DNA of 64,000 nt from assembly GCF_055900595.2 (NCBI RefSeq), contig NZ_CM148325.1. One strand, written 5' to 3'. Shown piece by piece: positions 8,218-14,200 of this stretch. Position numbers: made by a program. How positions within the stretch are numbered: position 1 is the first letter of the stretch; each line of letters begins with the position of its first letter.

Positions 8218-11200
8218 TGACCACTACATTCTGACGGTAAACTCAGGAATTTGTCGGTAAGAGCCTGATTTACTGAGACAGAATCTTTGCCCCTGAGTCT
8301 AAGGATGATCGTATAACGTGATTTTCGGTCTACAAGTGTGGCTATATGAGAGTTTTTTGTACCTAAGACTAAATCGCCCTCCCAATGCCCCAGAGAGCGT
8401 CTGTTATCGATATTTCGGGAACGTTCGTGAATTGGTGTTCCGTTCACTATGTTAATCGTACCTCTTTCGCCTTTGCGGGTATGACGCCTGCCATGGCGAA
8501 GGCTATGCGACCGTCGCAGATGCTGTATATTCAGGTGGTGTAGCGCTTCACGGCTACGAAAGTACAGCGTTTTATAAATTGTCTCAGGTGATATTCGCAG
8601 CGTTTTTTGACGTGGTTTTGTTCGCCTTAACCATCCTGATATTTGCTCTGGAGACCATTTCATCTCCAGCTTTTCCAGAACAAGCTTTCGCAATGGTAAA
8701 TTTTGATCCAGTAAGCACGGTTTTGGCCTTTTCGCCATTCTGTTGGCTCGGTTATTAGCATCAACAGCTTTGTAATAGCGTCTGCCCCGATTACGCTGAA
8801 CTTCACGTGAGATCGTCGAAGGACTGCGATTCAGCGCAGTAGCTATCGCACGAATGCTCATTTTGGCTGACAAACCAGCTCGTATCTCCTCGCGCTCAGA
8901 CAGTGTCAGGTGAGCTACAGCCCGCTTACGCTCATGGGGTTTTATGCCGCCAGTATCCCTTAACATAGTGAAGATCGTTCCGGGTTTTGAACCCAGGATA
9001 TTCGCTATTTCACTGAAGCCTGTTCCGTTCTTCCATAGTTCAAAAACAGAGGCTTTTTCCTCTGCTGTAAATGTTCGTCTCATTCAAAAAACCTCTGCAA
9101 CCCCATGTTTTCACATAACTGTTGCGTTGACCAATTGAATCTACAGTTGCTTTTTTTAATATATCTCGCTCAAGGCGAGCTTCATTTAACGCCTTACGCA
9201 GTTGCAGAATTTTAGATTCCAGTTCAGCCACCGTGCGGGAACCAAGAGTACCGAGCCCTTTTCTGGCGGCGGTAACCCATTGTCCTAAAGTGCCTTCAGG
9301 AAGAGATAATCGGGAAGCGCCTTCACTGATCGAAAGTTGATTTTCAAGAACCGTTCTGACAGCTTCGGCTTTGAACTCTTTAGAGTAACGTTGGGTTTTT
9401 CTGCTCATTATTAGCTCCTTCTGATGCCATTCTATTTCAGGAAGGAGTGTCCGTTAAACTCAGGCTACCTCATCCGTCAGAGCTGCATGATGGCGGCGTG
9501 AGAACCTTAGGCATCCCGACAGTGGTGGATAGGCCTATCCAGCAGGCTATAGCTATAGCGCAACATTTAAGCGCCATCGTGGACAAAAGCTTCTCAGACT
9601 CTAGGCACGGTTTCCGGCTGGGACGCAACGTATGGCAGGCAGTGCAATAGGCACAGCATTATATACGGGGCAGCAAACGGTGGGTGGTGGATATAAATCT
9701 GGAGAAGTTCTTCGACCGTGTGGATCACAGACTCCTGATGACGCGTCTGGCCAGTACGATAAAGGACAGGCGGGTGCTGAGGCTGATACGCCGCTACTTG
9801 AAAGAGGAAATAGTCCGGGACGGGCAAAGAGAGAAATGGCAGGAAGGCATGCCGCAGGGCGGCCATTGCTGGATGATATCAGGACGTCGTAGAGAACAAA
9901 CTGAAGCAGAAAGTGAATGAGAAGAAGAGCGCGGTGGCGCGCCCGTGGGAGCAGAAGTTCCTCGGGTACAGTATGACATGGCACAAACAGTTGAAGCTGA
10001 AAATAGCCCTGACGAGTGTGAACAGGCTGAAGGAGAAAGTGCGCAGTCTGACCACGGGAAACCGGAGCAAATCAGTGAAAGCGACAATCAATGCCCTGAC
10101 GCCAGTGCTGCGTGAACCTGTTTAAGATTCTGTGTAAATGCCTTTTCTCAGAAGTGACCGTCCTGGCGGTCACCGAACTCGATAATAAAGCGGCTGAACC
10201 TGTACATAGATTTGTGTAATCGCCTGATTTTGATATGTTCAATCCAGCATCATATGAAGGTTAATTTATGGATGAAAAACAGTTACAGGCTCTGGCTAAC
10301 GAACTGGCCAAAAACCTCAAAACCTCTGAAGACCTCAGTCAGTTTGATCGGCTGCTGAAAAAGCTCAGCGTTGAAGCCGCTCTCAATGCTGAGATGACAC
10401 ACCATCTTGGGTATGAGAAAAATCAGCCCAGACTAGGAGCTAACTCCCGCAACGGTTATTCCACAAAGACCGTTATCACAGGCGACGGTCCACTGGAACT
10501 GCGTACTCCGCGCGATCGTGACGGTACCTTCGAACCACAACTGGTAAAGAAAAATCAGACCCGTATTACCGGGATGGATAACCAGATCCTCTCGTTGTAT
10601 GCCAAAGGGATGACCACTCGTGAGATAGCTGCTGCGTTCAAAGAACTGTATGACGCAGATGTTTCACCGGCGCTGACAGCCGAAGCTGGCAGGCTAACTG
10701 GCCGAATCTTGCCACGTTCTTCGCTTATCCAACGGACATCCGCAAAGTGATCTATACGACGAATGCCATCGAGTCGCTAAACAGCGTGATCCGCCATGCG
10801 ATCAAAAAGCGTAAAGTGTTCCCGACAGACGACTCGGTGAAAAAAGTGGTGTGGCTGGCAATCCAGTCTGCGTCCCAGAAATGGACGATTCCGTTGAAGG
10901 ACTGGCGAATGGCAACGAGCCGCTTGGAACTGTAAATATCACATAGTTTTTGCGCCAAAATACCGAAGACAGGTGTTCTACAGAGAGAAGCGTAGAGCAA
11001 TAGGCTGTATTTTGAGGAAGCTGTGTGAGTGGAAAAGTGTACAGATTCTGGAAGCTGAATACTGTGCAAATCCCGCCCCAAATGAGCGCATACGGAAGTG
11101 TTCTGCGCTGGTTTTGCCGTACTCCTTCATGGGCCGGTTATTCATATCCGTCAGTAAATCCCAAAAACGTACATTCAACGTAAGCATCCGGTGAACTCGC

Positions 11201-14200
11201 ATGGCGCGATCACCGGCGTTATGGCAGGGCGTATTCAGTCCGCCGGATGGCGGTAAGGCAGCAGTTCATCCAGCCGGGACGCCGGCCATGACGGCAGCTT
11301 CTCCAGCACATCACGCAGCCAGACTACTGGCTCCAGACCGTTCAGCCTCGCCGTGTGCAGCAGCGTCAGCAGCTCCGCCAGCCGCTCTCCTCCCCGCAGC
11401 GAACCCGCGAACAGCCATGACTTCCGCCCCTGCGCCACCGGACGCATCATCTGCTCACTCCGGTTGTTGTCCAGCGGTACCCGTCCGTCATTCAGGTATG
11501 TTTCCAGCGCCGGCCAACGCTTCAGGGCATACGTCACCGCACCGTGCAGCCTGCCACCCGGCGCGCTCGTCTTTTCCGTCGCCCTCAGCCAGCTGTGGAA
11601 CGCCTCCATCTGCGGCTTCGCGTACCGCCGTCGCCATCGCCATTTCTGCTCTGCCGGACGCTGCCGGATGGTCTGCTCCAGGATATACAGCGCCCGTATC
11701 TGTTTCAGCGCCTCCTTCGCCCCCGGACTGCCGTTCATTCTGTACAGCTCCATGAACTTTCTGCGCACGTGCGCCATGCACCCCGCCTCACAGATACCCG
11801 GTGCCGCCGGAGGGGCCCCTTCCTGCCCGTCACGGAACAGCGCCCGGTAACCGGCATAACCGTCAGCCACCAGAGTCCCCGACCACCCGCTCAGCATCTC
11901 ACACGCATACTGCCCCGCACGCCCCGGACGGCAGTCGTACACCACGATGTCCCGGGCACTGCCCGCCGCACTCACGTATGCTCACAGGTACCCTTTCCGG
12001 ACTTTCCCTTTCCGCGTATCCAGTATCTGCAGCGGCGTCTCGTCCGCCTGCAGCACCGGTTGCCTGAGCAGGTCACGTTTCAGGGCTGCCGCCAGCGGCG
12101 ACAGCACCGCCGCCGTCGGCCCGAACCAGTCCGTCAGCGTGCTTTCCGGCAACTGTACCCCTTCACGGGCGTATATCTTCTGCTGCCGCTGCAGTGACAG
12201 GTGATCCAGCACCTTCGCGGTCACCACCTGCGCCAGCAGACCCGGACCCGGCTGCCCTTTGTCGATGACTGCCGGCGGCAGCACGGCACTGTGCACCGTG
12301 TCGCAGCACGGGCAACTGTACTGCGGTCTCACGGTCCGTTTCACCACGAAGTGTGCCGGTACATACTCCAGCACCTCATTCACCTCGTCGCGGATATGTC
12401 GCATTTCACTTCCGCAGTCCGGACAGGTGCTACCGGTCTCAGGCATGAGTACGGTTTCCTGTCGCGGCAGGTGTGCCGGCAGGGGGTGACGGGCCGGCTT
12501 CTTCCCGGTTTTCTCCTTCACCGGCAGCAGGTCGCTCAGTTGCCGGGTGATATCAGCCTCATCGCTGGCCGCGTCCTCATCTGCCAGTGGTTTCTGGCTG
12601 GCCGGGAGGCGCTCGCTTTTACGCCCGAAGCGCCACTGGTGGGCCAGCTTCAGGGCCTCCTCCAGCTCCCGGATGCGCTGTTCATATGCGGTTTTTTCTG
12701 CCTGCATGGCGGCATTAAGGTCATGGATACGCTGTTCCAGCGTGGTGGTGACGGTATTCAGGTTATGGAGGCGCTGTTCCAGCGTGGTGTTGACGGTATT
12801 CAGGTTATGAAGGCGCTGCTCATATTCGCATGCCTGTGCCGTCAGCAGCGCTGTTGCCAGACGGCGCAGTTCATCGGGGTTTTGTGTGGTGTTCAGGATG
12901 TCATCTGTCATGCAGCCATGATGACAGAGGCGGGCGGGAACATCCTGATAAGAAGCTGCCCGTATTATGATTCTGGCACAGGAGGTTATTCAGTCCACCT
13001 CTGCAGGGGGCTGGCAGAGAGACGCAGCCAGTCAACGCCGGCGGTAAGCCAGGCGAACTGTTCCACCGTGAGCGACCAGGTGGTGTCGCCGTCGCGGGGC
13101 CAGCGGAAGGCGCCCTGGTGCAGGCGGCGGGTGCAGAGCCAGACGCCGTGGCGGTCCCACATCAGGAGTTTCATGCGGGTGCGTTTTTTCCCGGTGAAGA
13201 GGAAGGCTTCGCCTTCCCGGGGCGGATGCCCGGCGGCCTGAGTGGCGAGTCGCGTCAGGGAGTCGATGCCGGCGCGTATGTCAGCAGGCTCGCGGACGAG
13301 CCAGAGGGAATGAGGGCTCAGCACAGGTTAAGCTCCCGGATGATGGCGGCGATGCCGGCCGGAGAGGCGGTGACGCAGGCGCACTGAAGTTTCAGGGTGG
13401 CAGTGTCACTGACGGAGAGGGTGACCGGCAGGATGGCTGGTCTGTTATCAGCCGGAGCGGGGCCACGGGCGTCGTCAGCGGAGAAGGCGCGGCAGAGATG
13501 CCAGAAAGTTTTGTTGTTGATGCCGTGTTGCCGGGCATACGCGGTCCGGGACATGCCGCTGACGCGCCAGGCGTCGTAGTGCTGGCGTCGCTGCGCCGGG
13601 GTCATTTTTTTGCCATCAGTTTTCTCTCTTTTGCATATAAAGGAAGAACCTGCAGAATGGCGTGGTTCACAACGGCCGGCAATGCGAGTTCACCGGATGC
13701 TTACCATTCAACGTCCTGAGTGCATGGAAGGTTTCATTATGGATACGGGCAAGCAGCTATCTTTCAACGGTGAAAACACCGTTTTTTGTGCTTTTGGTTT
13801 GCGTGGGTGAACCGGTATGATAACCGTACCATAGTACTCTGCAGGGCCTGGTTACTGTCGTGGATGACAGGAACATAGCGCTGCGCTTCTTAGTTTATCG
13901 GGGCTGAGCAGCTTCGGTACGTTGCTCAAGTAGGTCAGGCAGTGGCCGTGAGTATTTAACCATGTCATCATACCCTGACCTTCACATGCTTCAGCGTAGG
14001 TATAGTAAGATGCCCCCCCCATGGCCACGGAAATTGCCACGCGTATCCCCGGCACAATACCAGAAAATGAAAGAAGCGGAGGGAGGATAGACTTGTTACG
14101 CCTTCTGCTCTACATAAAAATTTTCCGGAAGCTGTCAGAAAAGAACTAATGACCTTAGGTACATTCATGGAAACGGTAAAGATTCTCTTACATAACTATT

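What the first reader, a model, noticed from the sequence alone, without database searches (positions are those of the whole stretch)
11172..13712. IS66-family element with intact 8-bp TSD but tnpC inactivated by a single in-frame stop and carrying a 48-bp tandem duplication
A perfect CATTCAAC duplication flanks the 2525-bp element. The two tnpC ORFs are in the same frame, separated by one TGA (complement 11982-11984) at a position where related TnpC proteins have Trp, consistent with a single TGG to TGA change. The coiled-coil region also has a 48-bp tandem repeat (about 12735-12830) encoding the duplicated LEQRLHNLNTV segment.
Basis: seen in the sequence. Interest (0 to 1): 0.4.

Follow-up and report, generated by a model that had tools for sequence, protein, structure and literature searches.

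The report
Dead IS66-family insertion sequence copy
This is an ordinary, already-annotated jumping gene of the IS66 family whose transposase was killed long ago by a single TGG-to-TGA change; it now sits as one decaying copy at the same chromosomal site in about 150 E. coli genomes.

Summary
A 2525-bp IS66-family element (window 11180-13704) has 26-bp terminal inverted repeats, a perfect 8-bp target duplication (CATTCAAC) and tnpA-tnpB-tnpC on the minus strand. tnpC has one in-frame TGA, at codon 310. Four close relatives read TGG there, and all 19 aligned TnpC proteins have Trp.

Two corrections are needed. First, the tandem repeat has a 42-bp (14-aa) period, not 48 bp. The two near-identical units lie at 12735-12776 and 12777-12818. 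Second, it is not clearly a lesion. Intact relatives of 530, 544 and 558 aa differ only in how many of these units they carry, so it is a copy-number polymorphism of the coiled-coil.

The stop is not an assembly error. Of 147 complete E. coli genomes that contain this segment, 146 carry the exact TGA version and none carries TGG. The element is single-copy at one identical site in 150 genomes, where RefSeq already flags tnpC as a pseudogene ("internal stop").

The lineage shows neutral decay: 11 nonsynonymous against 3 synonymous changes, compared with 2 against 9 in an intact plasmid relative. Orthologous copies have since acquired further frameshifts, deletions and an IS insertion.

Verdict: a real feature, ordinary and already known.

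The parts
11180..13704 (-). Complete IS66-family insertion sequence, 2525 bp, 63.4% G+C in a 47.2% G+C window. The genes run tnpA>tnpB>tnpC on the minus strand.
11172..11179 (.). Target-site duplication CATTCAAC, copy next to the tnpC end.
13705..13712 (.). Target-site duplication CATTCAAC, copy next to the tnpA end.
11180..11205 (.). Terminal inverted repeat at the tnpC end (GTAAGCATCCGGTGAACTCGCATGGC).
   Evidence: 26 nt, 96% complementary to 13679-13704
13679..13704 (.). Terminal inverted repeat at the tnpA end.
13318..13605 (-). tnpA, 95 aa, open. Carries the lineage-specific change R75C.
   Evidence: NCBIfam NF047593 IS66-family TnpA
12986..13324 (-). tnpB (IS66 Orf2), 112 aa, open. It overlaps tnpA by 7 nt and carries the lineage-specific changes M16I, A87V and G105S.
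   Evidence: Pfam PF05717; NF033819
11235..12911 (-). tnpC pseudogene, 558 codons. Domains: LZ_Tnp_IS66 (82-152), zf-IS66 (162-204), DDE_Tnp_IS66 (218-509) and the IS66 C-terminal element (516-553).
   Evidence: RefSeq annotation 'internal stop'
11982..11984 (-). In-frame TGA at tnpC codon 310, inside the DDE domain. Relatives read TGG (Trp) here.
12777..12818 (-). 42-bp coiled-coil unit 1 (codons 32-45, QRLHNLNTVNTTLE).
12735..12776 (-). 42-bp coiled-coil unit 2 (codons 46-59, QRLHNLNTVTTTLE). It is 40/42 identical to unit 1 and is the unit missing from the 544-aa relatives.
12693..12734 (-). Diverged third 42-bp unit (codons 60-73, QRIHDLNAAMQAEK), 25/42 identical to unit 2.

Best explanation
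An IS66-family insertion sequence (tnpA-tnpB-tnpC, 26-bp inverted repeats) transposed once into a stretch of IS debris in an E. coli genomic island, creating the 8-bp duplication CATTCAAC.

Before the carrier lineages diverged, a G>A transition turned Trp codon 310 of the transposase TnpC (TGG) into TGA. The stop falls inside the DDE catalytic domain. The 309-aa product keeps the leucine-zipper and zinc-finger regions but lacks most of the catalytic domain.

Since then the element has been an immobile, neutrally decaying relic. It has been inherited at one fixed site, by descent or carried along with the island.

The extra 42-bp (14-aa, two-heptad) unit in the N-terminal coiled-coil is a separate in-frame copy-number variant. 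It is of a kind that functional relatives also carry, most likely produced by slippage or unequal exchange between the pre-existing imperfect repeats.

Shown: the anatomy, the TGG>TGA change, its fixation, the single site, and the substitution pattern. Inferred: loss of transposition activity, and the mechanism and timing of the repeat change.
For: Anatomy and family:
- establish the structure and the three gene families.

Relatives:
- An intact relative on Salmonella IncC plasmid pSB109 (L004) shows 97.3% identity in the search hit and 97.6% in the alignment. It has its own 8-bp duplication (GTAATTTC) and W at the stop position.
- TGG is the codon in L004, L006, L007 and L008.
- W310 is present in all 19 relatives aligned.

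Fixation in E. coli:
- 150 of 5426 complete E. coli genomes hold the full element, at most one full copy per genome, all with the same two flanks.
- 146/147 have the exact TGA 86-mer and 0/147 have the TGG version.
- RefSeq marks tnpC as a pseudogene with an internal stop.

Substitution pattern:
- Window-lineage changes are 11 nonsynonymous to 3 synonymous. The neutral site ratio is 2.93.
- The intact plasmid copy shows 2 to 9. Fisher p = 0.0048.
- 11 of the 14 changes are GC>AT transitions.

Decay after the stop, seen in orthologous copies:
- A 1-bp deletion (L003), a 12-bp deletion (L009), an IS421 insertion (H28) and loss of tnpC (L010).
- R424W and TnpB A87V are absent from L009, which already has the TGA.

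Repeat polymorphism:
- Intact TnpC proteins of 530, 544 and 558 aa differ by whole 14-aa units.
Against: - No empty target site was found in any of the 5426 E. coli genomes. The insertion event therefore rests on the target duplication and inverted repeats alone.
- Inactivity is inferred, not measured. E. coli reads UGA through at a low rate using tRNA-Trp (general knowledge), which would restore the wild-type residue.
- tnpA and tnpB remain open.
- The order of the stop and the repeat change cannot be resolved, because every E. coli copy carries both.
Confidence: 0.93

Rival explanations
1. The TGA and/or the extra repeat unit are sequencing or assembly errors in this one record.
Against: - The identical TGA 86-mer occurs in 146 of 147 independent complete assemblies, and no TGG version occurs.
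- A query with one unit removed found no E. coli copy that matches without the 42-bp gap. The top hits span 250 bp for a 208-bp query.
Confidence: 0.01
2. The element is still weakly active. Leaky UGA read-through by tRNA-Trp, or a programmed recoding signal, yields small amounts of full-length wild-type-like TnpC. On this reading the stop acts as a throttle rather than a kill.
For: - The stop replaces a Trp codon, and near-cognate tRNA-Trp read-through of UGA would insert Trp (general knowledge).
- tnpA and tnpB are open.
- The acidic residues that are invariant or near-invariant in the alignment (D290, D350, E486) are retained.
Against: - The element sits at one site, as a single full copy, in all 150 genomes.
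- Its substitution pattern is neutral, with hits at near-invariant residues P239 and R424.
- Orthologues carry frameshifts, deletions and an IS insertion.
- There is no unusual RNA structure downstream of the UGA (z = -1.07).
- The relatives examined at DNA level use plain TGG, and every aligned relative has Trp.
Confidence: 0.03
3. The 309-aa N-terminal TnpC fragment (leucine zipper plus zinc finger, no complete DDE domain) has been retained as a trans-acting inhibitor or regulator of related IS66 elements.
For: - The 309-aa ORF is called in many genomes; its protein cluster has 205 members.
- Truncated transposases act as inhibitors in other IS families (general knowledge).
Against: - The N-terminal ORF itself is degrading among orthologues. 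L009 has a 12-bp deletion and SNPs, L010 has lost tnpC entirely, and H28 has an IS421 insertion.
- On the window lineage it carries R91H, P239S and Q265P.
- The other IS66-family element seen in a carrier genome (ISEc23, in strain FY10) shares only 38% TnpC identity.
Confidence: 0.02
4. The extra 42-bp unit arose in this dead copy after inactivation, as part of its decay, rather than being inherited from a functional ancestor.
For: - The three closest relatives (L004, L006, L007; 97.6-98.7% identity) have one unit fewer, as does the more distant P0004. Parsimony on unit counts therefore favours a gain on the window branch and an independent gain in the L008 lineage.
Against: - The two units already differ at 2 of 42 positions, while the whole element differs from its nearest relatives by only 1.3-2.4%.
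- An identical 2-unit architecture exists in intact, target-duplication-flanked relatives.
- Unit number clearly changes in both directions (530, 544 and 558 aa).
- All E. coli copies carry it, so it is at least as old as their divergence.
Confidence: 0.3

Closest known systems
IS66 family insertion sequences (IS66 of Agrobacterium; IS679 and ISEc8-type elements of E. coli)
   Same: - Three ORFs, tnpA-tnpB-tnpC, with TnpC as the DDE transposase.
- Terminal inverted repeats of about 26 bp starting GTAAGC.
- An 8-bp target duplication.
- The family description (tnpABC) and the 8-bp duplication are given in PMC6778807, which cites Machida 1984, Han 2001 and Gourbeyre 2010.
   Different: This copy has a nonsense codon in tnpC and several missense changes. 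It appears immobile.
Unnamed intact IS66-family element on Salmonella enterica IncC plasmid pSB109 (NZ_CP101857.1, 103502-105985; TnpC WP_111995052.1)
   Same: - 97.3% (search hit) to 97.6% (alignment) nucleotide identity.
- The same gene order and nearly the same inverted repeats.
- Its own 8-bp duplication.
   Different: It is 2484 bp long, has TGG at codon 310, has one 42-bp unit fewer (TnpC 544 aa), and shows mostly synonymous lineage-specific changes.
Intact relatives with the same two-unit coiled-coil: Salmonella enterica subsp. diarizonae TnpC HAU3110335.1 (558 aa) and the element in Logan contig ERR4400455_116 (L008)
   Same: - Two QRLHNLNTV units followed by the diverged unit.
- In L008, the right end of the element is identical to the window's and a perfect 8-bp target duplication, TACCGAGA, flanks it.
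   Different: L008 shares about 90% nucleotide identity with the window element. Both proteins have an intact ORF with Trp at the stop position.
ISEc23 (an IS66-like element named by PGAP, present elsewhere in the same island in strain FY10)
   Same: The same family and the same three-gene layout.
   Different: TnpC identity is only 38%, so this is a different element. It was not found in the window.

Membership tests
IS66 family | Three consecutive genes, tnpA, tnpB and tnpC, on one strand. | tested here: met
   - The ORFs lie at 13318-13605, 12986-13324 and 11235-12911, all on the minus strand.
- NCBIfam hits: IS66 TnpA NF047593 and IS66 TnpB NF033819 on the window proteins; transpos_IS66 NF033517 on the intact relative.
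IS66 family | TnpC carries the IS66-type DDE transposase domain with an upstream zinc finger and leucine zipper. | tested here: met
   Pfam hits on the stop-repaired TnpC:
- PF03050, E = 2.4e-91
- PF13005, E = 1.1e-15
- PF13007, E = 2.4e-13
- PF13817, E = 4.3e-15
IS66 family | TnpB of the IS66 Orf2 type. | tested here: met
   PF05717, E = 2.1e-31; NF033819.
IS66 family | Terminal inverted repeats of roughly 20-30 bp beginning GTAAGC. | tested here: met
   - The inverted repeats are 26 nt with 25/26 complementary, starting GTAAGCATCC.
- The family consensus for the repeat start is recalled from the literature. It was not re-derived here.
IS66 family | 8-bp target-site duplication. | tested here: met
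   - CATTCAAC flanks the element on both sides.
- Relatives have GTAATTTC and TACCGAGA.
- An 8-bp duplication is stated for IS66 in PMC6778807.
IS66 family | Catalytic acidic residues of the DDE motif are present. | tested here: inconclusive
   D290 and D350 (invariant) and E486 (near-invariant) are retained in the alignment. Which residues are actually catalytic was not established here.
IS66 family | Ability to transpose. | not testable with these tools
   Indirect evidence argues against activity: a nonsense codon in the DDE domain, and one fixed site in 150 genomes.
A named ISfinder element | >=95% nucleotide identity to a registered IS. | not testable with these tools
   - ISfinder is not available here.
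- PGAP gives only the generic name 'IS66 family transposase', even to the intact 97% relative.
- The named elements seen are distant: ISEc23 at 38% and ISEc49 at 46%.

The most novel reading that the evidence does not exclude
The TGA is not a full knock-out. Near-cognate tRNA-Trp read-through of UGA would put back the wild-type Trp and give a trickle of full-length TnpC. That would make this a naturally throttled IS66 element rather than a dead one. A related alternative is that the 309-aa zipper and zinc-finger fragment acts as a regulator.
Probability: 0.03. Interest if true: 0.3.

Novelty: already known. Interest (0 to 1): 0.07.

Why it matters
It matters little beyond correct annotation.

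- The copy is a fixed, vertically shared marker of one E. coli island lineage, and a clean small example of IS decay after a single nonsense hit.
- The one mildly useful by-product is that the N-terminal coiled-coil of this TnpC subgroup varies by whole 14-aa (two-heptad) units among intact proteins (530, 544 and 558 aa). In-frame repeat-number differences there should not be read as damage.

Tried and rejected
- Empty-site search. A query joining the two flanks with one CATTCAAC found no contiguous match in 5426 E. coli genomes. The flanks are themselves IS debris (an IS200C fragment on the left, an IS21 fragment on the right), so pre-insertion alleles may no longer exist.
- Ordering the stop and the repeat change. 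This was not possible, because every E. coli copy has both.
- Search for an intact copy of exactly this lineage. Among 5.8 billion proteins, no full-length TnpC was closer than about 94%. Cluster members were inspected. The nearest intact forms at 97-98% nucleotide identity (L006, L007) come from short metagenomic or draft contigs with many L>P-type changes, and may be error-rich.
- Recoding signal. The fold downstream of the UGA is unremarkable (z = -1.07).
- Promoter and terminator scan. It was uninformative, with counts at the shuffle expectation.
- The primary IS66-family papers (Han 2001, PMC95320) are not held. Family features were taken from PMC6778807 and from general knowledge.
- ISEc23 as a possible identity was rejected at 38% TnpC identity.
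Full report
**What is in the sequence.** Window 11180-13704 is a 2525-bp block of 63.4% G+C in a 47.2% G+C window.
- It ends in 26-nt inverted repeats, GTAAGCATCCGGTGAACTCGCATGGC, with 25/26 complementary.
- The same 8 bases, CATTCAAC, abut it on both sides, at 11172-11179 and 13705-13712. The chance of that at fixed positions is 1.5e-5.
- On the minus strand it carries tnpA (13318-13605, 95 aa), tnpB (12986-13324, 112 aa, overlapping tnpA by 7 nt) and tnpC (11235-12911).
- tnpC translates as 558 codons with exactly one internal stop, a TGA at 11982-11984. The 309-aa and 246-aa ORFs are therefore in one frame.

**Family assignment.**
- With the stop read as Trp, TnpC hits four Pfam families: DDE_Tnp_IS66 (E = 2.4e-91, residues 218-509), zf-IS66, LZ_Tnp_IS66 and the IS66 C-terminal element.
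- TnpB hits PF05717.
- NCBIfam assigns the window's TnpA and TnpB to IS66-family models. It also assigns the intact relative's TnpC to transpos_IS66.
- The three-ORF layout and the 8-bp duplication match the published description of IS66 (PMC6778807).
- Codon 310 lies inside the DDE domain, between the invariant D290 and D350. The 309-aa product keeps the zipper and zinc finger but not a complete catalytic domain.

**The stop codon.** The closest intact element is on Salmonella enterica IncC plasmid pSB109. It shows 97.3% identity in the search hit and 97.6% in the alignment, and it has its own 8-bp duplication, GTAATTTC. Its TnpC (544 aa) reads ...KGYLWAYVS... where the window reads ...KGYL*AYVS....
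- The codon is TGG in pSB109 and in three further relatives (L006, L007, L008), so the window lineage has a single G>A change.
- Trp is present at this column in all 19 relatives aligned, down to 48% identity.

**Not an assembly error.**
- The full element is present at >=99% identity in 150 of 5426 complete E. coli genomes, at most one full copy per genome.
- With 200 bp of flank on each side, the same 150 genomes still give full-length matches. It is therefore one orthologous insertion.
- An 86-mer centred on the codon matches 146 of 147 genomes exactly in its TGA form.
- The same 86-mer matches none exactly in its TGG form.
- RefSeq already annotates the gene as an 'IS66 family transposase' pseudogene with an 'internal stop'.

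**The repeat.**
- TRF reports period 42 with 2.6 copies at 12710-12818.
- The best self-match is 40/42 at an offset of 42, against 15/42 at an offset of 48.
- In coding sense the units are codons 32-45 (QRLHNLNTVNTTLE, 12777-12818), codons 46-59 (QRLHNLNTVTTTLE, 12735-12776) and a diverged third unit (QRIHDLNAAMQAEK, 12693-12734).
- pSB109 and two other close relatives lack exactly one 14-aa unit.

This is not a lesion peculiar to the dead copy.
- An intact 558-aa TnpC from Salmonella enterica subsp. diarizonae has the same two units. So does an intact 554-aa TnpC in an element flanked by its own duplication, TACCGAGA (L008, about 90% nucleotide identity).
- An intact 530-aa E. coli protein has none of the QRLHNLNTV units.
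- The series 530, 544, 558 aa moves in steps of 14 residues, which is two heptads. By inference, this preserves the coiled-coil register.
- This part of TnpC is the most length-variable across the family.

Whether the window's state is a gain or an ancestral state is unresolved.
- Unit counts on the tree favour a gain.
- The 2/42 difference between the two units and the identical architecture in L008 argue for an older origin.
- All E. coli copies have the extra unit.

**Decay.** With L008 as outgroup, the window lineage has 14 private substitutions.
- Eleven are nonsynonymous: W310*, TnpA R75C, TnpB M16I, A87V and G105S, and TnpC R91H, P239S, Q265P, R413Q, R424W and C485S. Three are synonymous.
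- That ratio is close to the neutral site ratio of 2.93.
- The intact pSB109 lineage has 2 nonsynonymous and 9 synonymous changes (Fisher p = 0.0048).
- P239 and R424 are near-invariant columns.
- Eleven of the 14 changes are GC>AT transitions.

Orthologous copies have gone further.
- There is a 1-bp deletion at 11392 (L003) and a 12-bp deletion at 12465-12476 (L009).
- There is also an IS421 insertion in tnpC (H28) and loss of tnpC altogether (L010).
- L009 has the TGA but still carries the ancestral bases at 11642 and 13065. R424W and TnpB A87V therefore arose after the stop.

**Alternatives considered.**
- Read-through or recoding of the UGA cannot be excluded biochemically, but nothing supports it. 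The copy sits at a single fixed site and its substitutions look neutral. Orthologues are broken further. The RNA downstream of the stop folds unremarkably (z = -1.07), and relatives use TGG.
- A retained regulatory N-terminal fragment is contradicted by deletions and missense changes within that fragment.
- No empty target site exists among the complete E. coli genomes.

**Comparison and verdict.** The element meets every testable defining feature of the IS66 family.
- Its ISfinder name could not be checked.
- It is not ISEc23 (38% TnpC identity) or ISEc49 (46%). PGAP gives even the intact relative only the generic family name.
- The finding is real but ordinary and already annotated.
- Three corrections apply: the repeat period is 42 bp rather than 48; the repeat is a polymorphism rather than damage; and the stop is ancient and fixed, with further decay around it.

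Noticed in passing
window 10268-11072: The left flank of the IS is older IS debris. It holds a frameshifted transposase pseudogene (ORFs 10268-10750 and 10747-10935, annotated 'transposase, frameshifted' in RefSeq), followed by a fragment matching IS200C tnpA (10980-11072; 95.7% identity to many IS200C copies).
   Followed up: partly
window 13760-14016 and about 15685-15916: The right flank carries an IS21-family transposase fragment. About 2 kb further on there is a short frameshifted fragment that RefSeq calls an IS66-family transposase in some genomes. That would be a second, unrelated IS66-family remnant.
   Followed up: no
window 15980-16102 (+): Full-length Rfam match to the isrC Hfq-binding sRNA (150 bits), lying among IS fragments.
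   Followed up: no
window 20324-20393 (-) and 26698-26849 (-): There is an RNA-OUT antisense RNA (IS10-type), and a group II intron D1-D4 match with long ORFs next to it (27017-29303, minus strand). The FY10 version of the island has two group II intron ltrA genes at other positions.
   Followed up: no
window 46003-46077 (-): tRNA-Arg(CCT), with a 405-aa ORF just beside it (44637-45854, minus strand). The IS-rich region may be a tRNA-associated genomic island. The ORF was not examined.
   Followed up: no
window 1-25600 versus NZ_CP095816.1 (L011): The window is not strain FY10, although the IS is 100% identical. Only 8229-16682 is collinear. Neighbouring blocks are inverted or relocated, and the csc/sucrose region (window 3-3953) is 95.5% identical and sits on the other side. 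The island is heavily rearranged between carriers.
   Followed up: partly
L006 and L007 (metagenome or draft contigs), tnpC: These nominally intact 97-98% relatives carry many private nonsynonymous changes, 14:5 and 8:1 nonsynonymous to synonymous. Many are T>C changes giving Leu>Pro. These could be decaying copies or sequence errors. They were not relied on.
   Followed up: no
window 12201-13241 (+): A 346-aa antisense ORF spans tnpB and tnpC inside the IS. This is expected for 63% G+C DNA and was not considered a gene.
   Followed up: no
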